Source: an uncultured Actinomycetes bacterium
GTDB taxonomy: Bacteria; Actinomycetota; UBA4738; HRBIN12
Direction of reading: 5' to 3'
DNA: 64,000 nucleotides
Assembly: GCA_963704885.1 (NCBI GenBank)
Contig: CAVPIB010000004.1
Location: 608,001-672,000, forward strand
Shown here: positions 13,612-29,133 of the stretch, piece by piece
Numbering within the stretch: position 1 is the stretch's first letter
Layout of the letters: the number at the start of each line of letters is the position of its first letter
The notes under the pieces: generated by a model
Told to the model about the DNA's origin: nothing
The model's database searches: none
What the model saw: only the letters and a program-made list of their open reading frames with translations
Program-made: the position numbers and the translations under genes

Positions 13612-14706
13612 TCAACCCTGCTCGTCGCGGCCCGCCAACTGGTCGGCCCGCTCCGCCGAACGCAGCAGGTCGATGAACCCGTCGAGCTCCTCGCCGCCCG
13701 TGAGCACTTCCTGTAGCTGGTGCGAGGTGTGCTTGATCCGGTGATCGGTCACGCGGCCCTCGGGGAAGTTGTAGGTCCGGATCTTCTCTGCCCGCTCGCC
13801 GGTGCCTACCTGAGAACGGCGGCTGGCGGCCTCCTTCGCCTGAGCCTCGTCCTGCGCCCGCTGGAGCAGCCGCGCGCGGAGGTACCGCATCGCCTTCTCG
13901 CGGTTCTGGAGCTGCGACCTCTCCTCTTGACACTCCACCTTGATGCCCGTCGGCTTGTGCACGATCCGAACCGCGGAGTCCGTCGTGTTCACGGACTGCC
14001 CCCCGGGGCCAGACGAGCGATAGACGTCGATCTGGATGTCCTCGGCCCGGATCTCGATCTCGACCTCCTCGGCCTCGGGGAGGACCGCCACAGTCGCTGT
14101 CGAGGTGTGGATCCTGCCCGCCGACTCCGTGACAGGCACTCGCTGGACCCGATGGACGCCCGACTCGTGCTTCAGGCGGGCGTAGGCGTCCTTGCCTCTG
14201 ACCTCGACGACGGCCTCCTTGAAACCGCCAACCTCCGCCTCAGACGCCGAGAGAACCTCGGTCTTCCAGCGATGCCGCTCCGCCAACCGTCGGTACATCT
14301 CGAAGAGCTCACCTGCCCACAGCGCGGCCTCCTGTCCCCCGGCCCCCGCGCGGATCTCGACGATCACGTCCTTCCCGTCGTTCGGATCCTTCGGCACCAG
14401 CAGCACTTCGAGCTTCCCGCGCAGCTCATCGACCCGTGCTTGCGCGGTCTCAGCCTCATCGCGAAGGAAGGCGGCCATGTCCGCGTCGGGCTCTCTCGAG
14501 GCCATCTCCCGCGCCTCCTCGGCCTGACGCGATGCGTCGATGTACTCGCGATACGGTCGGACGATCTCGTCCAGCTCGGCGAACGACTGCCCGAGGGTCC
14601 GGAACCGATCCTGGTCCGCAGCCACGTTGGGAGCGGCCAGCTCTTGCGAGACGGCTTCGTAGCGAGATTCGATCTCCGCCAGACGTGCATCGAGGGACTC
14701 GGCCAT
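13612..14706 (-). CDS. prfA: Peptide chain release factor 1
   Basis: GVHRVQRVPVTE (PxT), GPGGQSVN, IRTYNFP. Confidence 0.98.
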   Translation of the reverse strand: MAESLDARLAEIESRYEAVSQELAAPNVAADQDRFRTLGQSFAELDEIVRPYREYIDASRQAEEAREMASREPDADMAAFLRDEAETAQARVDELRGKLEVLLVPKDPNDGKDVIVEIRAGAGGQEAALWAGELFEMYRRLAERHRWKTEVLSASEAEVGGFKEAVVEVRGKDAYARLKHESGVHRVQRVPVTESAGRIHTSTATVAVLPEAEEVEIEIRAEDIQIDVYRSSGPGGQSVNTTDSAVRIVHKPTGIKVECQEERSQLQNREKAMRYLRARLLQRAQDEAQAKEAASRRSQVGTGERAEKIRTYNFPEGRVTDHRIKHTSHQLQEVLTGGEELDGFIDLLRSAERADQLAGRDEQG

Positions 14707-14767: not shown

Positions 14768-15535
14768 CTACTCCTCGTCTTCCTCCGACTCGAAGTCGAG
14801 CTCGAGCGGCGGGATGGCCGGCATCTCGATCGCCTCGTCGGAGAGCATGCCCTCCAGGCTGTCGACGGGGTCGCTCGTCTCTTCGTGATCGTCGGCCGCG
14901 GCAGGTGGGTCGGCGGGTGCGGCGGCGACCGCCGTCTCGCGGCTCCGGCCTGTCTCCTTCTTCGTCTCCTTGGCGAGGACGGGCTCGTCGATCGCCACCT
15001 CGAGCTCCTTCGCCACACCGATCAGACGCGACTGCATCTCCTGCAGATGCTGGACCAGGTCCTCCCTGCGTGCCGAGAGCCCGACCAACACGCGATCGGA
15101 CTCCTGTTTGGCCTTCTCCAGCAGCTCGTTGCCCTCCTGCCGCGCCTCCTCGGCTCGCGCCTGGGCGTCCACCCGGATGCGATCGGCTTCGGTTCGGGCC
15201 TCGTTCAGCATGCGGGCGGCGTCGGCCCGAGCCTCGACCAGGATCCCCTCAGCCTCTTGGTCGGCCGTGGCGAGGAGCGTGGTCAGGCGCTTCGAGAGTC
15301 GCTCGTAGGGATCGTCAGAGGGCGGCGGGCCGGGCGGTGCACCGGATGGGCCGCTCGCTCCCTCAGCCAACCTTGCCTCGCGCAGCTGGCTCTCGAGTCC
15401 CTCGACCTGCTCCGCGACCTGCGCCAGATAGTCGCGGACCTGGTCGGGATCGTAGCCTCGACGGACGGACGCGAACTCGCGGCGACGGATCTGTGCGGCG
15501 CTCGGAAGGAACGGTAGATCGATATCGGTGGCCAT
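14768..15535 (-). CDS. DivIVA-domain coiled-coil protein
   Basis: IRRREFASVRRGYDPDQVRDYL N-terminal DivIVA signature, then a coiled coil and an acidic tail; start chosen at MATDIDL after GGAGG. Confidence 0.8.
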   Translation of the reverse strand: MATDIDLPFLPSAAQIRRREFASVRRGYDPDQVRDYLAQVAEQVEGLESQLREARLAEGASGPSGAPPGPPPSDDPYERLSKRLTTLLATADQEAEGILVEARADAARMLNEARTEADRIRVDAQARAEEARQEGNELLEKAKQESDRVLVGLSARREDLVQHLQEMQSRLIGVAKELEVAIDEPVLAKETKKETGRSRETAVAAAPADPPAAADDHEETSDPVDSLEGMLSDEAIEMPAIPPLELDFESEEDEE

Positions 15536-15633
15536 CGGACAACCTCCCGGGGTCGTCGGGTAACGACCCATCTTCAAGGGGCCGATCCCAAGATGCAACG
15601 ACCCTAAGTCGGGAGTATCGGCAGGTCAGGGCG

Positions 15634-16536
15634 TCAGCTGGAGGACTCAGCGGCCTCGGCCTCACGGCGCAAGACCTCGGAGAACGAGCTGATCGCCACC
15701 TGGATCTGCCCCTTATCGGGCGGCTGGGTCGTGATCCGCTGAAGCCACAGACCGGGAGCCATCAACACGCGCATGCCCCCGGAGGACTCGAACCGGGCTC
15801 CCAGACGCAGGGCCTCGTAGGCCAGGCCCGCGATCAAAGGGATGGCCAGGATCCGGGACCCGATCCGCCACCAGATCCCCGGTGTTCCGAACAGCGTGAA
15901 GACGAAGATCGTGATGATCATGACGATGATCAGGAAGTTCGTGCCGCAGCGAACGTGCACGGTGGAGTACCGATCCACGTTGTCGGGGTCCAGCGTCTCG
16001 CCGTGCTCGTAGGCGGCGATGGTCTTGTGCTCGGCGCCGTGGTACTCGAACACCCGGTGGATGTCCTTCGTCCGACCTATCAGCCACAGGTAACCCACGA
16101 AGAGCGCCACACGGAACAAGCCCTCGAGGATGTTAGTGAGCAAGCCGGCTCCCACCTCCCGATGGACCCACGCGAAGAGCACGGTCGGGCCCAGGATGAA
16201 GACGCCCACGAAGAGGACCATCGCGAAAGCTAGGGCCAATCCCACCTGGCGGGACGTCAGTTGCTCGTCCTCCTCCATGGATTGGTTGGTGGCGATCAGC
16301 AGCGCGCGGGTGCCTATCGCGAGCGACTGACCCAGCACGATGATCCCGCGGAGGAAGGGCTTGGCCAGGAGCGGGTGACGCTTGGCTATCGAATCGATGG
16401 AGTGGGATTCGACGTAGATGTCACCGGCGGGCTTCCGAACCGCGACAGCCCAGTGGTGGGCGCCACGCATCATGACGCCTTCGACCACGGCCTGTCCGCC
16501 GTAGAGATGCGCCGACGCCGGAGAGCGTTCGGTCAC
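15634..16536 (-). CDS. DUF1385 family membrane protein
   Basis: GGQAVVEGVMMR, FEYHGAEHK, HVRCGTNF motifs. Confidence 0.9.
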   Translation of the reverse strand: MTERSPASAHLYGGQAVVEGVMMRGAHHWAVAVRKPAGDIYVESHSIDSIAKRHPLLAKPFLRGIIVLGQSLAIGTRALLIATNQSMEEDEQLTSRQVGLALAFAMVLFVGVFILGPTVLFAWVHREVGAGLLTNILEGLFRVALFVGYLWLIGRTKDIHRVFEYHGAEHKTIAAYEHGETLDPDNVDRYSTVHVRCGTNFLIIVMIITIFVFTLFGTPGIWWRIGSRILAIPLIAGLAYEALRLGARFESSGGMRVLMAPGLWLQRITTQPPDKGQIQVAISSFSEVLRREAEAAESSS

Positions 16537-16802: not shown

Positions 16803-18507
16803 CTAGTTGCCGGACGGCGCCTTCGCGATCTCCTTCAGGAACTGCTCGTTCGACTTGGTCGCGCGGATCTTGTCCGTCAGGAGCTCCAACGCCGCGCCCG
16901 GCTCCAGCGCGTGTAGCACGCGGCGGAGCTTGACGACGAGTGCCAATTCTTCGGGCGGCATGAGGAGCTCCTCCTTGCGGGTGCCCGAGGCGTCGACGTT
17001 GATGGCCGGGAACAACCGCTTCTCCGCTAGTGAACGATCCAAACGAAGCTCCATGTTCCCGGTGCCCTTGAACTCCTCGAAGATGACCTCGTCCATGCGG
17101 GAACCGGTCTCAACGAGCGCGCTCGCGATGATGGTGAGCGACCCGCCCTCCTCGATGTTCCGCGCCGCCCCGAAGAACCGCTTCGGCGGGTAGAGCGCGG
17201 TGGAGTCCACGCCACCGGACAAGATCTTGCCGGAAGCCGGTGCGGCCAGGTTGTAGGCGCGAGCTAGGCGCGTCACCGAGTCGAGGAGGATAGCGACGTC
17301 CTGGCCCATCTCGGCGAGACGGCGGGAACGTTCCAGCACGAGCTCAGTCACCTGGATGTGCTGGTCGGCCGGCTTGTCGAACGTGGAGTACACGACCTCG
17401 GCCGCCTCAACGGTCCTCTGCCAGTCCGTGACCTCCTCGGGCCGCTCGTCGACCAGAAGGACGATCACGTGCGTATCGGGGCTCGACGCGATGATGCCGT
17501 TCGCGATCTGCTTGAGGATGGTCGTCTTGCCGGCCTTCGGTGGCGACACCACCATCCCCCGCTGACCCTTCCCGATAGGTGCGACCATATCGATGATCCG
17601 CTGCGCCACCTCGAGCGGACCACCTTCCAGCCGGAACCGCTCGTCGGGGAACAACGGCGTTAGCTTGTCGAAGTTCGGGCGGGCGCGGGCCGCCTCGACG
17701 TCGAGGCCGTTAACCGAGTCCAGGTCGAGCAGAGCGAAGTACTTCTCGCTGTCCTTCGGCCGGCGCACCTTGCCGGCCACCGTGTCACCCTTGCGGAGTG
17801 CGAACCGCCGAACCTGCGACAGGGAAACATAGATGTCCTCGGGCCCGGGCAGATACCCGGACGTTCGAAGGAACCCATAGCCCTCGGGAAGGATGTCCAG
17901 CAGACCGGTCAGGACCGGCGCGTTCTGCATCTCCTCCGCCCGCTCCTGTTCCTCGCGGACCCTTCGCTCCTCTCGCGAGCGGCGTCGATCCTCACGCGAA
18001 GGGCGCGGACGTCGATCGCGACCGTCCTGGGTTCGGTCGCCCTGGGTTCGGTCGCCCTGGGTTCGGTCGCCCTGGGTTCGGTCGCCCTGGGTTCGGTCGC
18101 CCTGGGGCCGATCGCCTGGGTTCGGTCGCCTGGGGCCGATCGCCCTGCGTTCGGTCGCCTTGGGGACGATCCACCTGCGACCGCTGATCGCGAGGACGAT
18201 CCTCGCTGGGACCTCGCTCGCGAGGGCGATCCTGCTGAGATCCTTCGTCTTGGCCCTCACCGGATCGGTCCGTTCGAACCTCACCGTTCATCACCTCGGC
18301 GCCCTCGTCGTCGGACGGACTCGCCACGGGCTCGGTCGGCGCGCGTGCGGCCGGTGTTTCATCAGAACCGGAGCCCGACACGATCGCGTCGATCAGGCCG
18401 GCCTTGCGCAGCTTCTGGGCACCTTCGATGCCCAAGCTCTGCGCGATCTGCTGCAATTCGGGGATCAGTTTCCCCTCCAGGACGCTGCGGTCAATCGTCG
18501 TATCCAT
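16803..18507 (-). CDS. rho: Transcription termination factor Rho with repetitive N-terminal insertion; apparent frameshifts within the repeat near 18115-18130
   Basis: Rho_N segment [18 protein letters not shown] (ORF 17992..18507) joins [33 protein letters not shown] (ORF 16803..18284). Confidence 0.96.
18027..18165. repeat. 15-bp tandem repeat (CCCTGGGTTCGGTCG, about 9 units, the first five near-perfect) encoding [10 protein letters not shown] inside rho
   Basis: Directly visible tandem array; two units lack one C, which accounts for the frame break. Confidence 0.9.
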
Positions 18508-18511
18508 GAGG

Positions 18512-19174
18512 CTATGCCTCTCCCTTCAACTCGTTCTGAAGCTTGGTCCAGTCGGCCTGGAACTTCTCCAGACCGAGGTCGGTGAGTGGGTGCTTCACCA
18601 GCTTGGTGAAGACGTCGTAGGGCATCGTGGCGATATCGGCGCCTGCGAGCGCCGCATCGATCACGTGCATCGGGTGGCGGAGCGACGCCGCCAATACGTT
18701 CGTCTGGTAGCCCTGCATCTGATAGACCTCGCAGATCTGCCGGAGCAAGAACATGCCGTCGCTCCCCACATCGTCGAGACGGCCGAGGAACGGGGAGACG
18801 ATGTACGCGCCGATCTCGGCCGCGAGGATCGCCTGCGCCGGTGAGAACACCAGCGTGACGTTGATCCGGATACCTTCATCGGTCAGCCGCTTCCCGCACT
18901 GAAGCCCGTCCGGAGTCATCGGCACCTTCACGACGACGTTCGACGCCTTCAGTGAAAGCCGGACGCCCTCCTCGTACATGGCGTCTGCCTGCGGCTGGGT
19001 GGTCTCGAGCGAGATGTCGCCGTCGACCTCGTCCAGGATCAGCTTCCATACCGCGTCTGGGTCCTCGTTCTCCCTCGCCACGAGCGACGGGTTCGTGGTG
19101 ACACCCTTCAAGACGCCCCAACGGTTGATCTCGCGGATCTCCTCGATGCTCGCGGTGTCGAGGAACAACCTCAT
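18512..19174 (-). CDS. tal: Transaldolase, TalC/FSA family
   Basis: FLDTA, GVTTNPSL, VVVKVP, NVTLVFS, SPFLGRLDD, AASLRHP. Confidence 0.9.
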   Translation of the reverse strand: MRLFLDTASIEEIREINRWGVLKGVTTNPSLVARENEDPDAVWKLILDEVDGDISLETTQPQADAMYEEGVRLSLKASNVVVKVPMTPDGLQCGKRLTDEGIRINVTLVFSPAQAILAAEIGAYIVSPFLGRLDDVGSDGMFLLRQICEVYQMQGYQTNVLAASLRHPMHVIDAALAGADIATMPYDVFTKLVKHPLTDLGLEKFQADWTKLQNELKGEA

Positions 19175-20133
19175 GTCGTCTGTCCTTTCAGTACGGGCTC
19201 GGCGCCGGCGGCCTCCTCGACCGCACGCGCCGTGGTGCGTTCCATGACCAGGTCGATAACAGCGGCGATCGACTGGTCGAATCCGTAGTTGGGGATGATC
19301 GGCACGTCGTGCGCGAGTGCCTGGCTCTTCACATAGGACTGGAGTCGCCGGATGTTGTCGAAGCCCTTCGCGTAGCGCCGCGCCGGCCGAGCGGCTATCG
19401 CATCCTCACGTGCCCCGAAATGGGAGCGATGGCGCTCCACATCGTCCACGGAGATGACGAACGGTACCGCCAGGATCCTGCCGGCGAACGCCTTCAGGTC
19501 GAAGAACCCCGGCACCACGTGCGCGCCTTCGATGATGATGCTGGTCCCCTCCAGGGCGGCACGTTCGATCAGGGCGTTGATCCCGACCGCGACGGCAGCC
19601 GTCTGCTCGCGGAAACCCACGATCAACGGATCGGCCGAACGCGTGGGGGGCTCGCGGAGCGCGACGTCGGCCTCGAAGGACGAGGTATGCAGCGTGGGCA
19701 TCAACTCCGGAGAGAACATCGAGCGCATGACCTCGCGGATGGCATCGGTAGCCACGAAGCGCACGATCCCAAGTCGGGCGGCCAGCTGTGTAGCGATCGT
19801 TGACTTGCCGACCCCGGTGGCACCGCCTATCAGGATCACGATCGGGACATCCAGCTTCTCGACCTCGCGCCAGCGAAGGAAGTTCTTCGCATAGCGATCG
19901 CCCGCGAGGTGAGTCAGCACTTCGAGCGCCAGCTCGGCGAGCTCGTCCGTGGTGAGGGAGGTGGAACCACGCTCACGCAGTCGATCTTCGATCTCCTCGG
20001 CCACCTGGTAGGCCCTGAACGGCGAGAGGCCGGTGACCATGACTTGCGAAGCCATGAGCCCCTTGGAGTACGGCAGCCCAGGCTCGCGATCCGAGATCAC
20101 GATGTGAGGGGTCTTGCTTCCCTTCTCTGTCAC
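19171..20133 (-). CDS. pgk2: 2-phosphoglycerate kinase (archaeal type, ATP-cone-like N-terminus + P-loop)
   Basis: PYSKGLMA...AYQVAEEI N-terminus, LIGGATGVGKSTIA Walker A, TDAIREVMR, PTLHTSSF, IIIEGAHVVPG; start GTG 20133 after GAGG, 4 nt downstream of cpgS. Confidence 0.85.
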   Translation of the reverse strand: MTEKGSKTPHIVISDREPGLPYSKGLMASQVMVTGLSPFRAYQVAEEIEDRLRERGSTSLTTDELAELALEVLTHLAGDRYAKNFLRWREVEKLDVPIVILIGGATGVGKSTIATQLAARLGIVRFVATDAIREVMRSMFSPELMPTLHTSSFEADVALREPPTRSADPLIVGFREQTAAVAVGINALIERAALEGTSIIIEGAHVVPGFFDLKAFAGRILAVPFVISVDDVERHRSHFGAREDAIAARPARRYAKGFDNIRRLQSYVKSQALAHDVPIIPNYGFDQSIAAVIDLVMERTTARAVEEAAGAEPVLKGQTT

Positions 20134-20137
20134 GCCT

Positions 20138-21472
20138 CTACCTCGTTCGTTGACGTTCCAAGGCCTGGTCGATGACCCCGCCCAGCGCCGTGTCGAGGTC
20201 CATCTCGCCCTCGACCACGATCGCTCGGTTGTCCACGAACACGATCTCCGCCCCTCGAGCAAGAGCCCGCTCGCACGCCACGTCGACGGCGGCAGCCTTC
20301 AACTCGGTGAGGAGGACGTCGAACGCCTCGGCTCCCTCCATGTCCTCCGCCAGTCCGGCCCGATCGGCCAGCCTGGTGCTCCAACCCACGACGGTGCATC
20401 CGTTGGCGGCCTCGAGGTGAGCTGCCTGCCTCGATGCCACCTCGGCTGGCGCCGTGGTGGTTAGGAACACCCGCTCACCCTTCACGTCTGCCAGCGGTAC
20501 CGGGATGAAGTCGGTAAGGATCTGCCGCGGATCATCGAGGAAGCGGCGGACGTGAGAGCGAAGTGCGGAGAGATTCTCGTGCCCAGCGACTGGGCCGGTA
20601 GCCATGGTAACAACGACAAGGTCCGACAACAAGAGCCTGAAGGGACCAAGATATCCGCCCAGATACTCCGGCGGAGCATCCGCTGGCACGACCAGCACGC
20701 CTGCGTCCCACGGGATCGGGGGTACGGACGCGCCGCTTCCTTCCAGGATCACAAGATCGGCCCCCTCGGCGGCCACCGCGACCTGCGCCGCTTCGCGGAC
20801 GTTCGTGGCGAACGGGGCGCCCGCCAGGCCACCGCCCACCCGGCGCGCCCCGACGGTTGTCACCCCTGTCGTAAGCGCGTCCTCCAGGTAGTCAGACGCC
20901 GCGTGCTCTCCCTTGCGGACCCGCTCGAGCAGGTCGGCGAGATCCACTGAGCCGGCGGGCGCAACCTGAGGTTCCGCGGGGCCTCCGCGTCCCATGGCCA
21001 CGACGACGGGAGTGAACCCGCGCCGCGCGGCCGTCCTGGCCAGCTCGCCGGCGATCGCCGTCTTGCCGGTTCGCTTGCCCGTTCCGATCACTGCGATGGT
21101 TGGAAGCACGAGCGGCGGTCCCGTGATGGGTGGGTCCAACCGGAAGTCGGCTCCCAGATACGGCAGGCCCCGGACGAGCGCCACCGCCACCAGCTCCATC
21201 CGCTCTCGGTAACCAAGGACGGGTTCGTCCGACAGATCCAGAACCGCGTCAGGTCCGAACTCGTCGATCGCGTCGGCAAGCGCCGCCATCCGGTCGTCGC
21301 CCACCACTCGGGTGGGGACTCCGAGGTCCGGCACCGCCGTCGGGTCGATCTTCTCCGTGCCCCCCACGAACAACGCGCCGACGACGTCGTGACCTCGCTC
21401 GCGCGCAACCTCGATCCCCCACCGGGTAACAGGCGGGTAGTGCTCGCCGTCGACCAGGACGATCACCCGCAT
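20138..21472 (-). CDS. cpgS: Cyclic 2,3-diphosphoglycerate synthetase
   Basis: C-terminal 444 aa of track ORF 20138..22318: LVDGEHYPPV, GGTEK, DLSDEPVL, GTGKRTGKTA, MGRGGPAEP, HAASDYLEDA, GGGLAG, LEGSGA, TELKAAAVDV, all characteristic of the cDPG synthetase family. Confidence 0.88.
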   Translation of the reverse strand: MRVIVLVDGEHYPPVTRWGIEVARERGHDVVGALFVGGTEKIDPTAVPDLGVPTRVVGDDRMAALADAIDEFGPDAVLDLSDEPVLGYRERMELVAVALVRGLPYLGADFRLDPPITGPPLVLPTIAVIGTGKRTGKTAIAGELARTAARRGFTPVVVAMGRGGPAEPQVAPAGSVDLADLLERVRKGEHAASDYLEDALTTGVTTVGARRVGGGLAGAPFATNVREAAQVAVAAEGADLVILEGSGASVPPIPWDAGVLVVPADAPPEYLGGYLGPFRLLLSDLVVVTMATGPVAGHENLSALRSHVRRFLDDPRQILTDFIPVPLADVKGERVFLTTTAPAEVASRQAAHLEAANGCTVVGWSTRLADRAGLAEDMEGAEAFDVLLTELKAAAVDVACERALARGAEIVFVDNRAIVVEGEMDLDTALGGVIDQALERQRTR

Positions 21473-21528
21473 AGGATGAAAGAGACCTCCTCTCGGATCG
21501 TGGATGGAGCCGGTTGAACCGCCCTCGC

Positions 21529-22318
21529 CTAATCGCCGACAGGCGCGACGCGCTCCTGCACTGGGAGCTCGTGCTCCCGGTGGACGGGCCCGCCCGACAG
21601 CGAGAACCGCGCCATCACCTGCCCATCGCCGAACGGGAACTTCCGGTGGATCGTTACTTCGTCCCCGTCGAACTCGAGCACGTTGTAGCAGGGCTTGGTG
21701 TAGCCGCGCACCCGCAGGGAAGAGACCGTTCCGGCGTTCGCGACATACATGTCCTCCAGGCGCCAGACGTAAGGGACGTGCTTGTGACCTGATAGCACGA
21801 CCTGCACACCCGCGTGGATGAGGACCTCCAACAGGTCGCCTGCGTCCATGACCGTGCTCCGCTCGCGCCCGGTTCCGGGGATGGGCAGCAGATGATGGTG
21901 GAGCACGAACACCCTCAGTTCCGCAGGTTGCAGGAACTCGCGGGAGATCCACTCGTAGCGGCCCCGGCCGATCCTGCCCTCGTTCTGATCCGGCTCTGAG
22001 GAGTCCATGCCGACCACGCGGATGCCGTCGATGTCTACCGACCAGCTCCGCGGGCCGATCAGGTCCTCGAAGTGGAGGTAGCCCACGTTGCGGGAGTCGT
22101 GGTTCCCGGGAACCGTGTACAGCGGGAGCCTCGATCCGGTCCGCATAGGCCACCCAGCTCTTGTACTCCTGACGGAAGCCTTCGCTGGTGAGGTCGCCGC
22201 TCACGACGACCGCGTCGGGCTTCAGCTCGTTCACCTCTGAGATGACGCGGTTCATCAGGTTCGGGACGAAGTACGGCGAGCCGACGTGCGGATCGGAGAT
22301 ATGGGCGATCGTGACCAC
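21529..22318 (-). CDS. Calcineurin-like metallophosphoesterase (CpdA/Icc-like); apparent frameshift near 22125
   Basis: All five motifs present across two frames: HISDPH, SGDL, VPGNHD, LHHH, SGHKH. Confidence 0.88.
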
Positions 22319-22345: not shown

Positions 22346-23200
22346 TCAGCCCTGGGTGATCTCGACCCCGGCGGGGGCCACGGCGAGCCTGAGGACGCTC
22401 CACCCATCACCGGGATCGGGAACAGTCGTGTCGTCCGATTCGAAGGCGAGCAGCGTAGGCCCGGCGCCCGAGAGGCAGACGGGCACGCCGGCCGCTCGCA
22501 GATCCATGAACACGCCCTCGACCGTTGGAACTAGAGCCAGGCGAACGTCCTGGTGCAGCCGATCGCGGAGCGTCTGCGTGAGCAACCCGGGCTCCGACGT
22601 GAGCGCCACCACGGTAGCCGCCGCGTGAGCCGAGTTGAACACCGCATCGGAGCGTGCGATCGGATCCCCCAGCGCGGCGCGCGCCTCGACCGTCGCGAGC
22701 CGGACGTCGGGTATCAAGGCCACCGGTCGGAGCGATGGATGCGCATCCAGGCGGATCACACCGTCTCCGAACGCGATCGTGAATCCACCGGCGATCGCCG
22801 CGGCCGCGTTGTCGGGATGGCCCTCCATCTCCACGGCGAGATCCAGGATCTCCTCAGGCTCCAGCCCCAGATCGAGCAATCGGTCGGCCAGGGAGATGCC
22901 CGCCACGCACGCGGCCGCCGACGAGCCGAGGCCGCGTTCGAGCGGGATGCGATTCACGCCGTGGAGCGCGACGGACGGGATCGGCGCCCCCCCGGCGCGC
23001 GCCGCGTGGGCGAGCGCCCTGCTCACCATGTCCGTGCCGTCCGAGGAGAGCTCGTCGGCACCCTCGCCCTCCCAGGTCACACCCGGTTCGGCTTCGGTGT
23101 CGAGGGTCACGTCGTTCCACAGGTCGAGGGCCAGGCCGAAGCAATCGAAGCCGGGTCCGAGGTTCGCGGAGGTCGCAGGGACCCGGGCGGTCAACCTCAC
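22346..23200 (-). CDS. thrB: Homoserine kinase
   Basis: VPATSANLGPGFD, IPLERGLGSSAAA, EGHPDN, LSGAGPT. Confidence 0.96.
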   Translation of the reverse strand: MRLTARVPATSANLGPGFDCFGLALDLWNDVTLDTEAEPGVTWEGEGADELSSDGTDMVSRALAHAARAGGAPIPSVALHGVNRIPLERGLGSSAAACVAGISLADRLLDLGLEPEEILDLAVEMEGHPDNAAAAIAGGFTIAFGDGVIRLDAHPSLRPVALIPDVRLATVEARAALGDPIARSDAVFNSAHAAATVVALTSEPGLLTQTLRDRLHQDVRLALVPTVEGVFMDLRAAGVPVCLSGAGPTLLAFESDDTTVPDPGDGWSVLRLAVAPAGVEITQG

Positions 23201-23204
23201 GGCA

Positions 23205-24311
23205 TCAGAGTCCGAGCTCGGCGGCCACGGCCGTGGGATCCGTCGGCACCACGGCGGGGTGCGCCGCACCGGCGATCGCCCACTCCGGGTCCTTCAGACC
23301 GTGGCCGGTGAGCACGCACACGACCGTCGCGCCCTTGGGGAGCACGCCGTCGGCGTGCAGATGCAAGAGGCCAGCGATGCTCGCTGCGCTCGCCGGTTCT
23401 GCGAACAGCCCCTCCCTCGCGACGCGCCGATAGGCGGCCAGGATCTCGCGGTCGGTCACCGCCAGGATCTGCCCCTCCGACTCCGTCGCGGCCGCGACGG
23501 CCTTGTCCCACGACGCCGGGTTCCCGATCCGTATCGCTGTCGCGATCGTCTGCGGATCCTTCACCGGCGCGCCTTCCACGATCGGAGCTGCCCCTTTCGC
23601 TTGGAACCCGAAGAGCTGTGGCGGCTCGGCTATCAGTCCGTCCGCCAGGTACTCCGAATAGCCGAGCCAGTGGCTGGAGATATTGCCGGCGTTCCCGACG
23701 GGCACGCAATGGATGTCGGGCGCGCGTCCGAGCGCGTCACAGATCTCGAACGCGGCGGTCTTCTGTCCCTGCAGCCGGAACGGATTCACGGAGTTCACGA
23801 GCGTGACCGGATAGCGGTCCGCCATCTCCTGCGCCAGCTCGAGCGCCGCGTCGAAGTTGCCCTCCACCTCCAAGACCCGAGCGCCGTGCACGAGCGTCTG
23901 AGCCATCTTCCCGAGGGCGATCTTGCCCTTCGGCACCAAGACGGCGCATGTGATCCCGGCCTTGGCGGCGTACGCGGCGGCGCTCGCGGACGTGTTGCCC
24001 GTGGACGCACAGACCACGGCCTTGGCGCCCTCCTCCATCGCCTTGCTGATCGCGAGCGTCATCCCGCGATCCTTGAACGAGCCCGTGGGGTTGGCGCCGT
24101 CGTACTTCAGCCACACATCGCAGCCGGTCTCTTCTGACAACGGCTCCGAGCGGACTAGCGGCGTGCCGCCCTCGCGCAGCGTGATCACAGGTGTGTCGTC
24201 GGACACGGGGAGACGAGAGCGGTACTCCTCGATCAGGCCTCGCCACTGATGAGCGCCGCCACTAGTCTGATGCAGACTAGTGGCCTCAGACATGCCGTCG
24301 CCGACACTCAC
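23205..24311 (-). CDS. thrC: Threonine synthase
   Basis: [33 protein letters not shown]; start may be the ATG at 24293. Confidence 0.96.
24258..24284. repeat. Palindrome copy 1 of CTAGTC-N7-GACTAG (12-bp stem, 3-nt loop), inside the thrC 5' end
   Basis: GCCACTAGTCTG-ATG-CAGACTAGTGGC. Confidence 0.8.
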
Positions 24312-25597
24312 TCCTCACCCTCCACCCGCAGGACACTCGCCACCGCCCGCACGGCCGGGAGATCTCGGAGCTCCGCCAGGGTCTTCTGGAAGGCTCCCTC
24401 CTGCGCGCGATGCGTGATGAACACCAACGTGGCTTCGTCGGCGAACCCCTCCTGCCACACTCGTTCGATGGACACGTCGTTGTGTGCGAAGTGCTCCGCC
24501 ACCTCGGCGAGAACACCAGGTCTGTCCTCCACGTGCAGGTTCAGGTAGTACTGCCCGCGGGTGTCGTCCATGGGGCGTATCCGGCGCTCGTAGACGCAGG
24601 TGCAGCCGATCCCTCTGGTACCGGCGACGCGGTTGCGAGCGGCGTTCGCCAGATCGCCCACCACAGCGGTGGCGGTAGGATCGCCGCCCGCCCCCTTGCC
24701 GTAGAACATGAGCTGCCCGACCTTCTGGCCCTCAAGGAACACGGCGTTGTACGCATCGCTCACCGATGCCAGCGGATGGGTGACGGGCACCATGGCGGGA
24801 TGCACTCGAGCTGAGACCTCCCCATCCTCCAGCTCGGCGATCGCCAGGAGTTTCACCGCATACCCGAGACGCTTCGCGTCGGCGATGTCCTGCGCCTGGA
24901 TCCCCGTTATGCCCTCGCGGTAGACGTCGCCGGCGACGACTCGAGTATTGAAGACGATCGAGGCCAAGATGGCGCACTTGGCGGCGGCATCGAACCCCTC
25001 GACGTCGGCTGTCGGGTCCGCCTCCGCATAGCCCAGCCGTTGCGCCTCCGCAAGCGCGTCTTGGAACGACCATCCGTGCTCGGACATCTGCGTAAGGATG
25101 TAGTTGGTCGTTCCGTTCACGATCCCGAGGAGCCGGGATACGCGCTCCCCCACAAGGGATTCCTTGAGCGGACGGATCAACGGGATGCCGCCCGCGACCG
25201 CGGCTTCGAACGACAGGTCTACCCCGGCGGCGTCGGCCGCGTCGAACAGTTCCTTGCCGGAGTTCGCCAGGAGTTCCTTGTTCGCGGTGACGACGGCCTT
25301 GCCACGCTCGAAGGCTCGCATGATCAGCGAGCGCGCCGGCTCCATACCGCCGAGCAGTTCGCAGACGATGTCGATCTCGGGGTCGTCGATGATCGAGACG
25401 CCATCGACGGTGAAGACCCCAGCGGGAAGCGGGACACCGCGATCGCGCTCGAGATCGCGGACCGCCACCCGAGTCACCTCCAGGCGGCAGCCGGTCCGAA
25501 GCGCGATGTCGTCGCCGTGCTCATGCACCATGCGGACCACGGCGGCCCCGACGGTGCCGCAGCCGAGGAGGCCGACACGCACGGTCTGCTCGGTCAT
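24308..25597 (-). CDS. hom: Homoserine dehydrogenase with C-terminal ACT domain
   Basis: [45 protein letters not shown]. Confidence 0.96.
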
Positions 25598-27466
25598 GCT
25601 CCTCGATCCTCTCCGATCCACACCGACATCAAGATCTCGTCCTCGTAGCCGGAGGACTTCCGGGAGTGTCCCATGAGCCGTCCTTCCTCCACGAACCCGA
25701 AGCGCCGATATAACGCGATCGCCGCGTGGTTGTGCGGGTACACCGAGAGCATGATCTTCTCGACGCCCACGCTGCGCGCCCATCGCAACGCCTCGCCCAT
25801 CAGCGCCGCGCCTATACCGCGGCCTCGATGATCGGCCGCCACGGCGATCCCCAGCGTCGCGACGTGCCGCGTCACTGGATGGACCTCCCGTTGGACGAAC
25901 ACGTGGCCGACCACGCGCCCGCCGTCGAGCCCTACCACCTGCGCTTCGCGATCGGTCCAGGAGGCGCGGAATCGCGTCCGATACACCCGTGCGGGTGTGT
26001 TGGCCTCCTCCGTCCTGACGTAGCCGCCCTCGGCGACGATCTCACGCCAGAACGACTGGAACGGGCGGGCGTCGCGAGAACGCGCGGGCCTGAACACGAT
26101 CCCGTCCGGCTTCGCCGGAGGCTCATGCCGGGCCGAGGTCGCCTCCAGCCGATCGAGGTCTCCCGCGTCCTCGCGCCTGAGCCAAAGCGTGGGTCGGGCG
26201 TCTTCGACCGCGACCACCGCGGGCCGGCCTATACGGTTGTAGGCGCTGGCCAGCGGATACGTGTAGGCGCCCGTCGCCGCGAACGCGAGCAGGTCACCCG
26301 GCTGCACGTCGCCCGGGAGCGCCACGGCTTCGGCAAGCACGTCGCCGGATTCGCAATGGCGTCCCACGATGGTGAGATCCCTCTCGTCGGCCGCGCTCGC
26401 CCGGTTGGCGAGCGCCACGGTGTACCGCGCGTCGTAGAGCATGGGGCGGATGTTGTCCGACATCCCCCCGTCCACGGCGATCGCCGTACGGCCGTCGCCC
26501 AACACCCTGCGATCGCCCACCCGGTAGAGCGTGACACCTGCGTTGCCCACGATGCTCCTACCCGGCTCCGCGGCCACTTGCGGAACAGGGAGGCCGAGAT
26601 CGGAGCACCGGCGCATGATCCGCTCCATGACCGCCTCCGCCGTAGCCCCCACGCCGGGGATGCGCTCGTCGGTGTAGGTGATGCCGAAACCGCCGCCGAT
26701 ATCCACCAGCTCGGTATCGAGGCCGTGACGCCGACGGAGGTCGGCGGCCAGTGCGATCAGCACATCCACCTCCTGTAGGAACGGACCGACGTCCGGCACC
26801 TGCGAACCGATGTGAGCATGCAGGCCCACGAAACGGACGTGCGGGAGATCGGCGACCCGCGCTGCCGCCTCCCGAACCTCGAAGGTGGATGCTCCGAAGG
26901 CGGTCGCCTCGTGCCCGGTGGCGATGGACTCGTGAGTGTCGACGCCTACACCCGGGTTCACACGAAGGATGAAGGGCTGCACGACGCCAGCCGCAGCCGC
27001 GACGCGATCGAGGCGCAAGAGTTCGTCCAGGCCATCCGCGATCAGCGTTCCGATCCCCGATCGGACGGCGAGCTCCAACTCCTCGTCGGTCTTGTTCCGG
27101 CCGTGCAGGGCGATACGGGCGGCTGGCACACCTGCACGCAGGCACGCCTCCACTTCGCCGCCGCTCGCGGCCAGCAGGTCGAGCCCCTCGTCGGAAGCCA
27201 GGCGCAGGATCGCATGAGAGGTGAACGCCTTGACGGCATAGAACGTGCGAGGAAAGGCGAGGCGCGCGGCCCGGAGCCTGGAGACCAGGTCCGCCCGGTC
27301 GAACACGAGGAGCGGGGTCCCGTACCTGCCGGCCAGCTCGTCGGCCGGCAGGCCGCCGATCCACAGCCCCTGGGTGTCGAACGTCGCGTTGGCTGACCAA
27401 GGCGTCGGGAGTGCCGGCCGACGGAGCGGAGATCGCCGTCGCCGAAGGGGCCGCGGGCTCAACCAT
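25594..27466 (-). CDS. lysA: Diaminopimelate decarboxylase fused in frame to a C-terminal GNAT acetyltransferase; apparent frameshift near the 5' end (~27410)
   Basis: YGTPL, FYAVKAF (PLP Lys), HAHIGSQ, DIGGGFG, EPGRS, HCESGD, then LGIAVAADHRGRGIG...NHAAIALYRRFGF with no intervening stop. Confidence 0.9.
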
Positions 27467-29133
27467 CGTCGCGCTCCATCGAGTCGGGGGCTGAGACGCC
27501 GAGCAGGCCGAGGAGGTTCGCCAGGATCTGCTTCGTGCCGGCGCAGAGCCAAAGACGTGCCTGGGTAAGCCCTTCGTCGTCGGATACGACGCGACACTCG
27601 CTGTAGAAGCGGTGGAACCTGGCGGCCAGGCTCTGGGACGCGTGCGTGAGCCGGTGGGGTCCGCGCTGCTCGGCCGCGAGCATCAGCTGGCCGGGTACGT
27701 CGGCGAGCGCGCGGAGCAGATCGAGTTCGGCCGGGTGTGCGAGCAGGCTCAGGTCTACGTCGGCGAGCGGCTTCAGCGCGAGACCCTGAGCCTCGGCTCT
27801 GCGCAGGATCGACGCGATCCGCGCGTGCCCGTACTGCACGTAGTAGACCGGGTTCTCCATGGTCTGCTGCTTCACCAGCTCGATGTCGAAGTTGAGCGCG
27901 GAGTCGTTCGAGTACTGGAGCAGGGTGAAGCGAGCCGCATCGGTGCCCACCTCGTCGATCAGCTGATCCAGCGTTATGAACTCGCCGGCGCGCGTGCTCA
28001 TCTTCACCGGCTCGCCGTCACGTAGGAACGCCACGAACTGATAGAGAACGATCTCGACGCTCGCCGGATCGAAGCCGAGTGCCTGCGCGGCGCCCTTCAC
28101 TCGGGCCACCGTGCCGAAATGATCTGCGCCCCAGACATAGATCACGTGGTCGAACCCGCGCGAGAACTTGTCGACGAGGTACGCGCAATCCGCACCGAAG
28201 TACGTGTGCACTCCGTTCGAGCGGACCACCACGCGGTCCTTGTCATCCCCGTAGTCCGTCGACCTGAACCATTCGGCGCCCTCGGCCTCGTATACATATC
28301 CGGCGTCGCGCAGGCGTCGGATGGCCTCTTGGATCTCGCCCGCGTCGGCCAGGTCGCGTTCGGACCGGTAGACATCGAAGAGGACTCCGAACCGCTCGAG
28401 CGTGGCCTTGATCCCCTCGAGGATGCGAGCGGCTCCTTCATCGCGCAGCCGTCGCCAACCGCTCGGCCTCGGGTAGGTCGGCCAGGCCAGCGCCCTCGGT
28501 CCGCAAGATGTCGCGCGCGATGTCTGAGATGTAGTCCCCGCGGTAGCCGTCCTCCGGGAACTCCGCATCGCGGCCGAGCTCCTGGAGGAACCGCGCCTGG
28601 ACCGATGCACCGAACCGGTCCATCTGTCCCCCGGCGTCGTTGAAGTAGTACTCGCGTTCTACCGTCCATCCGGCATGTTCCAGGAGCCGCGCGAGCGCGT
28701 CGCCGATCGCCGCGTTTCGCGCGTGGCCGATGGTGAGGGGTCCCGTCGGGTTGGAGCTCACGAACTCGACCTGCATGCGCCTGCCGTTGGGCGCGGCGCG
28801 GCCGTAGGCCGCGCCGCGGGCCACAACCTCACGCATGGCTTCGTGAAGCCAAGCGTTCGTCAAGAAGAAGTTCAGGAACCCCGGACCGGCGATCTCGACC
28901 CGCTCCAGGAATGGCGCCTCGGGAAGCGCGGCCAGGACGGCCTCCGCGACATCTCGCGGCTGGCGGCTCGCCCGCGCGGCCATGGCGAGAGCCACGTTCG
29001 AAGAGAAGTCGCCGTGGACCTTCTGTTTGGGAACCGATAGCTCTGGCCGCGGCAGCTCGCCCTCGATCCCCAGGCCGGGAGCAGCCGCCTCGAGCGCGGA
29101 GCGGATCAGCTCGAGGAGCTGCTCCTCGATCAC
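27459..29133 (-). CDS. argS: Arginine--tRNA ligase; apparent frameshift near 28440
   Basis: HGDFSSN, VEFVSSNPTGPLTIGHAR, GADH, KMSTRAG, ENPVYYVQYGHARI split across ORFs 28438..29133 and 27459..28610. Confidence 0.95.

What the first reader, a model, noticed from the sequence alone, without database searches (positions are those of the whole stretch)
18512..22318. Archaeal-type cyclic 2,3-diphosphoglycerate (cDPG) pathway embedded in a bacterial core operon
Seen: adjacent co-oriented genes for a cDPG synthetase-family protein (DGEHYPPV, DLSDEP, GTGKRTGKTA, MGRGGP, HAASD, ELKAAAVD) and a 2-phosphoglycerate kinase, 4 bp apart. The kinase stop overlaps the transaldolase start, and the block sits between thrB and rho. 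Known: 2PGK followed by cDPGS makes cDPG from 2-phosphoglycerate, characterised in methanogens such as Methanothermus fervidus as a thermoprotectant/compatible solute and possible phosphate/energy store. From memory, homologs are annotated in a few bacteria such as Rubrobacter, but I know of no demonstration of cDPG in a bacterium. Inference: this actinobacterium makes cDPG. The host-like base composition and lack of mobility genes suggest an old, domesticated acquisition linked to central carbon metabolism.
Basis: partly seen in the sequence, partly recalled or inferred. Interest (0 to 1): 0.88.

Follow-up and report, generated by a model that had tools for sequence, protein, structure and literature searches.

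The report
Bacterial cyclic diphosphoglycerate gene module
This soil or sediment actinobacterium carries close relatives of the two enzymes that heat-loving methanogens use to make the protective solute cyclic 2,3-diphosphoglycerate, together with a conserved phosphoesterase, and the same gene set is found in more than half of the actinobacterial genomes sampled, although nobody has yet shown that a bacterium makes the compound.

Summary
On the minus strand lie a 444-aa cDPG-synthetase homologue (20138-21472), a 320-aa 2-phosphoglycerate-kinase homologue 4 bp downstream (19171-20133) and an Fsa/TalC transaldolase whose start overlaps the kinase stop, all between thrB and rho.

The synthetase matches the solved M. 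fervidus enzyme over its full length (E 4.6e-96, model TM 0.93). It keeps 10 of the 11 named ligand residues that I could map.

- The ORF reaching 22318 is an artefact. Bases 21529-22318 are a separate metallophosphoesterase (MPE) gene, frameshifted in this assembly.
- The cassette is not rare. cDPGS occurs in 232 of 401 sampled Actinomycetota genomes, 2PGK in 230 and the MPE in 229, with almost the same all-or-none pattern by family and conserved synteny.
- No archaeal origin is shown. The actinobacterial sequences sit on one side of an unrooted tree.

A second, differently ordered cluster (cDPGS-2PGK-CBS-double MPE) in other lineages links the MPE to the pathway independently.

Best reading: a vertically inherited module for making and probably turning over cDPG in a non-hyperthermophile. 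The product is unproven. Databases already name these genes, but I found no paper on bacterial cDPG.

The parts
20138..21472 (-). cDPG synthetase homologue (P0002, 444 aa; stop codon 20138-20140)
   Evidence: E 4.6e-96 to M. fervidus cDPGS structures 8ork/8oru over the full length. The AF2 model has pLDDT 90.5, and matches 8oru at TM 0.93/0.90 with 39% identity. Ligand residues are conserved.
19171..20133 (-). 2-phosphoglycerate kinase homologue (P0003, 320 aa, GTG start) with an ATP-cone and a P-loop kinase domain
   Evidence: NF003259 E 1.3e-87, 294.1 bits (cut-off 343), covering model positions 5-299 of 306; ATP-cone at residues 36-93. It lies 4 bp after the cDPGS stop. A 2PGK gene is adjacent in 78 of 78 loci that have room for it.
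21529..22318 (-). Metallophosphoesterase gene (MPE), about 262 aa in relatives; here split by one extra base near 22124-22128
   Evidence: PF00149 match on the C-terminal ORF. All 11 relatives examined are intact, and the window needs two frames to read through. An orthologue occurs in 229 of 401 genomes of the phylum, with the same family pattern as cDPGS.
18512..19174 (-). Fsa/TalC-type transaldolase (220 aa); its start overlaps the kinase stop (ATGA)
   Evidence: TIGR00875 263.1 bits, cut-off 245.95. It follows 2PGK in 68 of 71 loci that have room for it.
16803..18284 (-). Transcription terminator Rho (downstream boundary; 227-bp gap after the transaldolase gene)
   Evidence: TIGR00767 599.5 bits. 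It lies downstream in 64 of 64 loci that have room for it.
22346..23269 (-). Homoserine kinase thrB (upstream boundary; 27-bp gap to the MPE start)
   Evidence: TIGR00191 204.7 bits, cut-off 168.25. lysA, hom and thrC lie further upstream.

Best explanation
The block is a co-oriented, tightly packed gene string, MPE-cDPGS-2PGK-transaldolase, set between thrB and rho.

Inferred mechanism:
- Step 1: the kinase (P0003) phosphorylates 2-phosphoglycerate with ATP to give 2,3-diphosphoglycerate.
- Step 2: the synthetase (P0002), probably a dimer like the M. fervidus enzyme, uses a second ATP and Mg2+ to close the two phosphates into the cyclic pyrophosphate cDPG, releasing ADP and Pi.
- Residues that would do this: P-loop Lys133/Arg134/Lys137/Thr138, Asp194, Glu390/Lys392, and Glu40/Lys41 supplied by the partner subunit.
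- Step 3 (more speculative): the conserved metallophosphoesterase reopens cDPG or dephosphorylates 2,3-DPG, returning carbon and phosphate to lower glycolysis or gluconeogenesis.

Shown here: family membership, fold, conserved ligand residues, translational coupling, co-inheritance of the three genes and conserved gene order. Inferred: the substrates, the product and the role of the MPE.

The organism shows no sign of hyperthermophily. The likelier roles are therefore a phosphate, energy and carbon buffer, or an anionic solute with K+, rather than protection against heat.

The module looks old in Actinomycetota and is compatible with vertical inheritance followed by loss in many families. It does not look like a recent import into this genome.
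For: Synthetase:
- E 4.6e-96 over the full length to the crystallised, biochemically characterised M. fervidus cDPGS.
- AF2 model with pLDDT 90.5 and pTM 0.90. Best PDB match is 8oru at TM 0.93/0.90, rmsd 2.4, 39% identity. The next fold, LpxK, reaches only TM 0.43.
- Of the 12 residues that PMC10690619 section 8 (read) names for 2,3-DPG, Mg and ADP binding, 10 are kept: E40, K41, K133, R134, K137, T138, D194, T340, E390, K392. All ten are invariant in 15 actinobacterial sequences.

Kinase:
- Best family is 2PGK NF003259, E 1.3e-87, full length.
- The adjacent kinases in the second cluster type pass the curated cut-off: 407 and 349 bits against 343.

Linkage:
- A 4-bp gap and an ATGA overlap join the genes.
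- In 401 sampled genomes of the phylum, cDPGS is in 232, 2PGK in 230 and the MPE in 229.
- By my comparison of the listings: 228 genomes have both cDPGS and 2PGK, 4 cDPGS only, 2 2PGK only. For cDPGS and MPE: 227 have both, 5 cDPGS only, 2 MPE only.
- Families are all-or-none, for example f9 26/26, f19 32/32, f14 0/17, f15 0/20, f27 0/11.
- Synteny in 80 species-level loci: 2PGK 78/78, MPE 63/72, transaldolase 68/71, rho 64/64.
- A different gene order, cDPGS-2PGK-CBS protein-double MPE, appears in 7 of 80 metagenome loci with Thermococcus-like cDPGS.

Against the cofactor reading: the genome has an archaeal-type cofactor-independent PGM (348 bits, cut-off 320) and no dPGM above cut-off.

Not a hyperthermophile: IVYWREL fraction 0.403. 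Contigs 95-99% alike occur in three marine-sediment runs, and three contigs 99% or more alike in a fourth sediment run.
Against: - No product was measured.
- The library's papers state that cDPG is found only in hyperthermophilic methanogens (PMC10690619, abstract and introduction). I found no report of it in a bacterium.
- The kinase scores below NCBIfam's curated 2PGK cut-off (294.1 against 343). The 2PGK superfamily includes enzymes with other substrates: mevalonate-3-phosphate 5-kinase and plant Lpa1 (listing).
- The cDPGS superfamily includes arginine synthetase ArcE, which shows that the fold can change chemistry (PMC11032458).
- M. fervidus Glu305, an adenosine contact, is Thr292 here. 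Pro335 could not be mapped.
- The proposed third enzyme is frameshifted in this very assembly. It is not adjacent in 9 of 72 loci.
- The cDPG hydrolase described in M. thermautotrophicus is membrane-bound (PMC1224877 section 24), whereas the MPE has no hydrophobic segment.
- Related genomes are not independent samples, so the co-occurrence overstates the support.
- 39 of 80 metagenome loci carry a cDPGS homologue with neither partner within 5 kb.
Confidence: 0.65

Rival explanations
1. Same families, different chemistry. The bacterial pair acts on another phosphorylated small acid or sugar acid, or makes a different cyclic or linear pyrophosphate, so the database name cDPGS is a mis-transfer.
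For: - ArcE shows that the cDPGS superfamily can catalyse an unrelated reaction.
- 2PGK relatives phosphorylate mevalonate-3-phosphate.
- The kinase is below the equivalog cut-off.
- Identity to the characterised synthetase is only 38-39%.
- Glu305 is replaced by Thr292.
Against: - The residues that hold 2,3-DPG in the crystal (E45, K145, R146; here E40, K133, R134) and the Mg ligands are invariant in 15 actinobacterial sequences.
- The kinase's best model by a wide margin is 2PGK.
- Kinases that pass the 2PGK cut-off sit beside cDPGS in the second cluster type.
- ArcE is so distant that its authors report only low similarity to cDPGS homologues.
- No OTC or carbamate kinase was identified among the ORFs assigned in 13.6-27.6 kb.
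Confidence: 0.17
2. The working product is 2,3-diphosphoglycerate itself, for example as a cofactor or regulator. The synthetase and MPE would only trim its level, or the synthetase would run backwards to make ATP.
For: - 2PGK-family genes occur without cDPGS in Thermus, Deinococcus and several archaea (control genomes; PMC1274311).
- 2 of 401 genomes have the kinase without the synthetase.
- The M. fervidus synthetase is reported as reversible (PMC1224877).
Against: - The genome has no cofactor-dependent PGM above cut-off. It uses an ApgM-type mutase that needs no 2,3-BPG.
- Kinase and synthetase co-occur in 228 of the 234 genomes that have either one, which is not expected if the kinase alone sufficed.
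Confidence: 0.08
3. The cassette is a lineage-specific import from archaea into this organism or its close kin.
For: - The only characterised members are archaeal.
- Archaeal (Thermococcus, Asgard) and other bacterial (Bipolaricaulota, Cloacimonadota) sequences share the family.
- The tree is unrooted, so an ancient transfer in either direction remains possible.
Against: - The gene is present in 39 of 41 relatives up to order level (25 of 25 high-quality genomes) and in 232 of 401 genomes of the phylum.
- It holds the same position before rho in named Aquicultor, Euzebyaceae and Acidimicrobiia MAGs.
- The 18 actinobacterial sequences form one side of a branch, SH-aLRT 93.
- Composition is host-like.
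- No mobility gene was identified among the ORFs assigned in 13.6-27.6 kb.
Confidence: 0.04
4. The genes are decaying relics with no present function.
For: The neighbouring MPE carries a frameshift in this assembly.
Against: - The synthetase and kinase frames are intact, with 81-93% identity within the genus and conserved catalytic residues.
- The MPE is otherwise intact, with all its motifs, and a related contig lacks the extra base.
Confidence: 0.02

Closest known systems
cDPG pathway of Methanothermus fervidus (2PGK plus cDPGS; structures 8ORK and 8ORU)
   Same: - The same two enzyme families are present.
- The synthetase is homologous over its full length (E 4.6e-96; TM 0.93; 39% identity).
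- It has the same Walker A with the Lys-Arg insert, the same Mg ligand Asp in HAASD, the same ELK motif, and the same GGTEK residues that the partner subunit supplies.
   Different: - The host is a high-GC bacterium with no sign of hyperthermophily.
- The genes are translationally coupled and sit in a thrB...rho housekeeping string with a transaldolase.
- A metallophosphoesterase gene is co-inherited.
- The kinase is below the curated equivalog score.
- Glu305 is Thr here.
- The product is not demonstrated.
Arginine synthetase ArcE (TK2200, Thermococcus kodakarensis; PMC11032458)
   Same: It belongs to the same wider P-loop superfamily. Its authors used cDPGS homologues as the outgroup and noted low similarity (passages read).
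   Different: - ArcE interconverts arginine and citrulline with ADP/ATP, and associates with arcB and arcC.
- The window protein keeps the 2,3-DPG ligands and sits beside a 2PGK gene, not OTC or carbamate kinase.
- I could not bring an ArcE sequence into the tools, so no direct alignment was made.
- The paper's SI Figs S10 and S11 (distribution and tree) were not visible to me.
Class III metallophosphodiesterases Rv0805 (M. tuberculosis) and GpdQ (Enterobacter aerogenes)
   Same: These are the nearest solved relatives of the MPE (E 6.8e-13 and 1e-10). They share the calcineurin-like fold family PF00149 and the motifs DxH, GD, GNHD and GHxH.
   Different: - No equivalog model is reached. The best NCBIfam scores are far below their cut-offs.
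- The MPE's genomic partners are cDPGS and 2PGK.
- Its substrate is unknown.
- The membrane-bound cDPG hydrolase of M. thermautotrophicus (PMC1224877) has no gene named in the passages I read, so identity with it can be neither claimed nor excluded.

Membership tests
Cyclic 2,3-diphosphoglycerate synthetase (CpgS; PF27272 CpgS_N in newer Pfam) | Full-length sequence homology to the characterised M. fervidus enzyme | tested here: met
   E 4.6e-96, query residues 2-439 against chain residues 6-454 of 460. The local Pfam and NCBIfam copies hold no model for the family: 0 hits. Relatives carry a precomputed PF27272 label.
Cyclic 2,3-diphosphoglycerate synthetase (CpgS; PF27272 CpgS_N in newer Pfam) | Two-domain fold: a unique N-terminal domain plus a P-loop C-terminal domain | tested here: met
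   AF2 model pLDDT 90.5. 8oru matches at TM 0.93/0.90, rmsd 2.4 over 457 columns. The next fold, LpxK, reaches TM 0.43.
Cyclic 2,3-diphosphoglycerate synthetase (CpgS; PF27272 CpgS_N in newer Pfam) | 2,3-DPG and Mg ligands: E45, K46 (in trans), K145, R146, K149, T150, D208 | tested here: met
   E40, K41, K133, R134, K137, T138 and D194. All are invariant in 15 actinobacterial sequences.
Cyclic 2,3-diphosphoglycerate synthetase (CpgS; PF27272 CpgS_N in newer Pfam) | Nucleotide contacts outside the P-loop: E305, P335, T353, E404, K406 | tested here: inconclusive
   T340, E390 and K392 are kept. E305 aligns with T292. P335 does not fall on a proline in the printed alignment, so it could not be mapped.
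Cyclic 2,3-diphosphoglycerate synthetase (CpgS; PF27272 CpgS_N in newer Pfam) | Catalysis: 2,3-DPG + ATP -> cDPG + ADP + Pi | not testable with these tools
   This needs an enzyme assay or 31P-NMR.
2-phosphoglycerate kinase (NCBIfam NF003259 / COG2074) | Score at or above the curated equivalog cut-off (343 bits) | tested here: not met
   294.1 bits, E 1.3e-87. Three other actinobacterial orthologues score 289-321 bits. The kinases next to cDPGS in L107 and L115 score 407 and 349.
2-phosphoglycerate kinase (NCBIfam NF003259 / COG2074) | Full-length architecture (ATP-cone plus P-loop kinase), with 2PGK as the best-scoring subfamily | tested here: met
   Model positions 5-299 of 306 are covered. 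ATP-cone at residues 36-93 and an AAA_33 P-loop domain at 99-224. Mevalonate-3-phosphate 5-kinase scores only 73.7 bits against a cut-off of 250.
2-phosphoglycerate kinase (NCBIfam NF003259 / COG2074) | Catalysis: 2-PG + ATP -> 2,3-DPG + ADP | not testable with these tools
   No solved structure of the family was found. An assay is needed.
Arginine synthetase ArcE | [quoted passage not shown] | tested here: not met
   The ORFs assigned in 13.6-27.6 kb are prfA, rho, transaldolase, 2PGK, cDPGS, MPE, thrB, thrC, hom and lysA.
Arginine synthetase ArcE | Closer sequence similarity to TK2200 than to cDPGS | not tested
   No ArcE sequence could be obtained. The paper reports only low similarity between the two families.
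Calcineurin-like metallophosphoesterase (PF00149) | Domain match and the metal-binding motifs DxH, GD, GNH[DE], H, GHxH | tested here: met
   Window C-terminal ORF E 3.4e-08; intact orthologue E 6.6e-21. Motifs are at residues 9, 41, 71, 140 and 177 of the orthologue.
Calcineurin-like metallophosphoesterase (PF00149) | Uninterrupted reading frame in this genome | tested here: not met
   There is one extra base near 22124-22128 relative to 11 intact relatives. One related contig (X1) leaves out a letter at 22124. X2 contigs covering the place show no indel.
Fsa/TalC transaldolase (TIGR00875) | Score above the curated cut-off | tested here: met
   263.1 bits against 245.95.

The most novel reading that the evidence does not exclude
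More than half of Actinomycetota, most of them not thermophiles, run a three-gene cDPG cycle. 2PGK and cDPGS build the cyclic pyrophosphate, and the co-inherited metallophosphoesterase is the hydrolase gene for cDPG turnover, which no passage I read names. On this reading cDPG is a mainstream bacterial buffer of phosphate, energy and carbon (or a K+ counter-ion) wired to lower glycolysis and gluconeogenesis, not a speciality of hyperthermophilic methanogens. The family may be at least as old in bacteria as in archaea.
Probability: 0.3. Interest if true: 0.8.

Novelty: new variant of a known kind. Interest (0 to 1): 0.62.

Why it matters
In the papers I could read, cDPG is described as exclusive to hyperthermophilic methanogens and is explained mainly as a heat protectant. 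A conserved, translationally coupled synthetase-kinase pair in 57% of sampled actinobacterial genomes, inside a housekeeping gene string, would change that picture if it is active.

- The compound would be a common bacterial metabolite, and its main role would more likely be phosphate, energy and carbon buffering or osmotic balance.
- The co-inherited phosphoesterase gives a concrete candidate for the breakdown step.
- The bacterial enzymes, from organisms that are not hyperthermophiles, may be useful for making cDPG, which is being developed as an extremolyte (PMC12136491, abstract seen).

All of this can be tested directly with two or three recombinant proteins and 31P-NMR.

Tried and rejected
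A phrase with a space in place of the comma found nothing. 'cpgS' was swamped by CpG papers, and a six-term OR search was dominated by taxon names. Those four gave no usable evidence.
- The 1992 paper on the cDPG hydrolase is not held.
- Expression: no RNA holder was listed for the stretch, so nothing can be said about transcription.
- The promoter and terminator consensus scan found 0 sites of either kind in 16-28 kb. This is uninformative for a high-GC actinobacterium.
- Naming cultured hosts: three look-ups of 30 representative proteins returned only MAG labels or none.
- Rooting the tree: I could not obtain an ArcE sequence or bring the M. fervidus sequence in as a stored protein. The trees are unrooted and lack characterised methanogen enzymes.
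- Rejected idea: that 2PGK exists to supply 2,3-BPG to a cofactor-dependent mutase. No such mutase scores above cut-off, and an ApgM-type mutase is present.

Full report
**What is there**

All genes on this stretch of the window lie on the minus strand. In order they are:
- lysA, fused to a GNAT domain (25594-27597)
- hom (24308-25783)
- thrC (23205-24311)
- thrB (22346-23269)
- a metallophosphoesterase gene, MPE (21529-22318)
- a cDPG-synthetase homologue (20138-21472; P0002, 444 aa)
- a 2-phosphoglycerate-kinase homologue (19171-20133; P0003, 320 aa, GTG start)
- an Fsa/TalC transaldolase (18512-19174)
- after a 227-bp gap, rho (16803-18284)
- further on, prfA (13612-14706)

The spacings are 27 bp (thrB to MPE), 56 bp (MPE to cDPGS), 4 bp (cDPGS to 2PGK) and an ATGA overlap (2PGK to transaldolase). 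GC across the block is 0.634-0.686, against 0.672 for the genome.

**Correction of the gene model**

Its first 65 or so residues are the N-terminus of the MPE.
- Relatives read '...RIEAPIYTVPGNHD...' in one frame.
- The window needs two frames because of one extra base near 22124-22128.
- All 11 relatives examined are intact at about 250-262 aa.
- When public contigs were laid on the stretch, one related contig (run X1, about 93% alike over that piece) leaves out one letter at 22124. Contigs of run X2 covering the place (depth 6.4) show no indel. The X3 contig ends at the site.

Whether this is an assembly error or a real, recent lesion stays open.

**The synthetase**

- The local Pfam and NCBIfam copies hold no model for this family (0 hits).
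- Against solved structures, the only hits are three chains named cDPG synthetase. Two are from M. fervidus (8ork, 8oru; E 4.6e-96; query 2-439 against 6-454 of 460). The third is 9sxb (E 7.8e-93), whose source organism I could not establish.
- An AlphaFold2 model built on 15 actinobacterial sequences has pLDDT 90.5 and pTM 0.90.
- It superposes on the ligand-bound 8oru at TM 0.93/0.90, rmsd 2.4 Å, 39% identity. The next fold, LpxK, reaches TM 0.43.
- Section 8 of PMC10690619 (read) names E45, K46, K145, R146, K149, T150, D208, E305, P335, T353, E404 and K406.
- In the printed alignment these correspond to E40, K41, K133, R134, K137, T138, D194, T292 (a change), not mappable, T340, E390 and K392.
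- The ten conserved residues are invariant in the 15-sequence alignment.

**The kinase**

- The best NCBIfam model is 2PGK NF003259: E 1.3e-87, 294.1 bits, positions 5-299 of 306. That is below the curated cut-off of 343.
- Mevalonate-3-phosphate 5-kinase scores 73.7 bits against a cut-off of 250.
- Pfam sees an ATP-cone (residues 36-93) and a P-loop kinase domain.
- No solved relative exists.
- Three other actinobacterial orthologues score 289-321 bits. The kinases beside cDPGS in two non-actinobacterial-type contigs score 407 and 349, above the cut-off.
- The same model also rings in Thermus, Deinococcus, M. jannaschii, H. volcanii and S. acidocaldarius, so family membership alone does not fix the substrate.

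**Distribution**

- The word-indexed search scored 8000 candidates, and 7971 had E<=1e-10. The best 120 are 71-94% identical. Those that carry a name at all are named cDPG synthetase or 2,3-diphosphoglycerate synthetase (JGI, or NCBI MAGs labelled Actinomycetota or Actinobacteria); many rows carry none.
- In a library of one representative per 50%-identity cluster, 245 reach E<=1e-30, 669 reach E<=1e-10 and 1035 reach E<=1e-3.
- Among 41 relatives up to order level, 39 have the gene (25 of 25 high-quality genomes). The two without it are 76% and 61% complete.
- Among 401 genomes drawn across the phylum:

| Gene | Genomes with a match | Threshold |
|---|---|---|
| cDPGS | 232 of 401 | E<=1e-10 |
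| 2PGK | 230 of 401 | E<=1e-10 |
| MPE orthologue | 229 of 401 | E<=1e-40 |

- Comparing the listings by eye for cDPGS and 2PGK: 228 genomes have both. Four have cDPGS only (G036, G209, G290, G294) and two have 2PGK only (G126, G332).
- For cDPGS and MPE: 227 have both. Five have cDPGS only (G058, G207, G225, G301, G404) and two have MPE only (G151, G332).
- Families are nearly all-or-none. Examples: f9 26/26, f16 9/9, f19 32/32, f31 16/16, against f14 0/17, f15 0/20, f20 0/13, f27 0/11.
- Related genomes are not independent, so this is a pattern, not a statistic.
- These tallies include the unpublished genomes listed in those outputs. They are a small minority and do not carry the pattern.

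**Synteny**

- In 7 of 7 same-genus loci the order MPE-cDPGS-2PGK-transaldolase is kept.
- In 17 loci from other genera and classes, MPE is adjacent in 15, 2PGK in 15, the transaldolase in 13, and rho lies downstream in 17 (one of these, L023, is from an unpublished genome).
- In the 80 best species-level loci of the genome collection, all Actinomycetota MAGs including named Aquicultor, Euzebyaceae and Acidimicrobiia, counting only loci with enough flank:
  - 2PGK follows in 78 of 78.
  - MPE precedes in 63 of 72.
  - The transaldolase follows in 68 of 71.
  - rho follows in 64 of 64.
  - thrB lies within 3.5 kb upstream in 21 of 63.
- In one family (f19) a class II fructose-1,6-bisphosphatase gene (glpX) replaces 2PGK and the transaldolase after cDPGS. 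A more divergent 2PGK-family gene lies elsewhere in those genomes (E about 1e-43 to 1e-51).
- From memory, mycobacteria have thrB directly followed by rho. That fits either an insertion into, or a loss from, a conserved string.

**A second arrangement**

I also fetched 80 metagenome loci ranked by likeness to a Thermococcus-type member. Sorted by gene neighbourhood:

| Arrangement | Loci (of 80) |
|---|---|
| MPE upstream and 2PGK downstream | 18 |
| MPE upstream only | 7 |
| 2PGK downstream only | 8 |
| 2PGK elsewhere on the contig | 1 |
| cDPGS, then 2PGK, then an MPE about 1.3-1.7 kb downstream | 7 |
| Neither partner within the flanks | 39 (24 with full flanks) |

In the two loci of the downstream-MPE type that I examined, L107 and L115, the order is cDPGS, 2PGK, a 139-140-aa CBS-pair protein, and a 507-514-aa protein with two Metallophos stretches. 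L107 is flanked by an ABC transporter and two PhoU/TrkA_C genes. The same three families clustered in a different order, in a distant branch, is independent support that the phosphoesterase belongs to the pathway.

**Phylogeny**

- A FastTree of 87 rows was built from 69 of the 150 listed representatives (those 415-500 aa long, the query included) plus 18 locus translations. Look-ups then named some branches Thermococcus, Ca. Borrarchaeum, Asgard/Hodarchaeota, Cloacimonadota and Bipolaricaulota.
- An IQ-TREE of 29 named or located rows (all unnamed representatives left out) puts the 18 actinobacterial rows on one side of a branch, SH-aLRT 93. The archaeal and other bacterial rows, and two representatives labelled as actinobacterial MAGs, are on the other side.
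- The tree is unrooted and lacks the characterised methanogen enzymes. It is compatible with one old origin in Actinomycetota, and it says nothing about direction.

**Physiological context**

- The genome has no cofactor-dependent PGM above cut-off (best 38.8 bits against 81.7) and no bacterial iPGM above cut-off (23.6 against 330.65). It does have an archaeal-type ApgM (348.4 against 320). 2,3-BPG is therefore not needed as a mutase cofactor.
- The IVYWREL fraction of 1714 long, GC3-rich ORFs is 0.403. By a formula I recall (937F-335) that is about 43 °C, with a known upward bias in GC-rich genomes.
- Contigs 95-99% alike occur in runs labelled marine sediment. Three contigs 99% or more alike occur in a run labelled sediment.
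- The literature I could read gives cDPG three roles in methanogens: thermoprotection, osmotic balance with K+, and phosphate, energy and carbon storage. It also reports a membrane-bound hydrolase inhibited by K+ and Pi (PMC10690619 introduction; PMC1224877 section 24).
- The MPE has the full metal-binding motif set and no hydrophobic segment. Its nearest solved relatives are Rv0805 and GpdQ.

**What is known and what is new**

- PMC10690619 says cDPG is found exclusively in hyperthermophilic methanogens (abstract and introduction).
- Full-text searches for the synthetase name (17 papers), for the kinase name (55 papers), and for diphosphoglycerate together with Rubrobacter (4 papers) returned nothing on a bacterial pathway, judging from listings, abstracts and the passages I opened.
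- The ArcE paper (PMC11032458, passages read) shows that a distant branch of the superfamily is an arginine synthetase. Its supplementary figures, which I could not see, may show bacterial cDPGS homologues as an outgroup.
- Database annotation already names these genes. The presence of homologues is therefore known at the level of automatic annotation.
- As far as my searches reach, these points are not in print:
  - the breadth in Actinomycetota
  - the fixed position before rho
  - the co-inherited phosphoesterase
  - the second cluster type
  - the implication that cDPG is not a thermophile speciality

**Verdict**

The functional inference is well supported by homology, fold, ligand residues and co-inheritance, but it is unproven (confidence 0.65). 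The 'archaeal acquisition' story is not supported as stated. Interest is moderate to high, because three recombinant proteins and an NMR tube would settle the question.

Noticed in passing
window 22124-22128 (within 21529-22318, minus strand): The metallophosphoesterase gene upstream of the synthetase has one extra base relative to 11 intact relatives. Its N-terminal frame therefore runs on into the synthetase frame and creates a false 726-aa ORF. One related public contig lacks the base, while contigs of another run show no indel at the site.
   Followed up: partly
window 25594-27597 (minus strand): Diaminopimelate decarboxylase LysA (residues 77-484) is fused to a C-terminal GNAT acetyltransferase domain (residues about 540-657), giving a 667-aa ORF. 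In locus L098 a separate GNAT-domain ORF sits between thrB and cDPGS.
   Followed up: partly
window about 17999-18110 (minus strand, N-terminal part of the rho ORF): The Rho ORF begins with a run of six 'GDRTQ' repeats in an Arg/Glu-rich extension before the RNA-binding domain. The true start codon is uncertain.
   Followed up: no
L107 4998-9189; L115 4992-9140: Metagenome contigs with Thermococcus-like cDPGS carry a four-gene cluster: cDPGS, 2PGK, a CBS-pair protein and a double metallophosphoesterase. In L107 the cluster is flanked by an ABC transporter and two PhoU/TrkA_C genes, which hints at a link to phosphate and potassium homeostasis.
   Followed up: partly
L014 2790-3791 (genome G093, family f19): In one actinobacterial family, a class II fructose-1,6-bisphosphatase gene (glpX) follows cDPGS in place of 2PGK and the transaldolase. 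This again ties the locus to gluconeogenesis.
   Followed up: partly
G000:C4:212699-213952 (outside the window): The genome encodes an archaeal-type cofactor-independent phosphoglycerate mutase (ApgM, 348 bits against a cut-off of 320). No dPGM or bacterial iPGM scores above cut-off.
   Followed up: partly
window 14768-15598 and 15634-16536 (minus strand): Two ORFs of 276 and 300 aa between rho and prfA have no NCBIfam match at E<=1e-10. They may be spurious frames in GC-rich DNA or unassigned genes.
   Followed up: no
L118-L186, various: 39 of 80 metagenome loci, mostly low in GC (0.23-0.66), carry a cDPGS homologue with no 2PGK or MPE within the fetched flanks. In those lineages the partners are elsewhere, or the enzyme works differently.
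   Followed up: no
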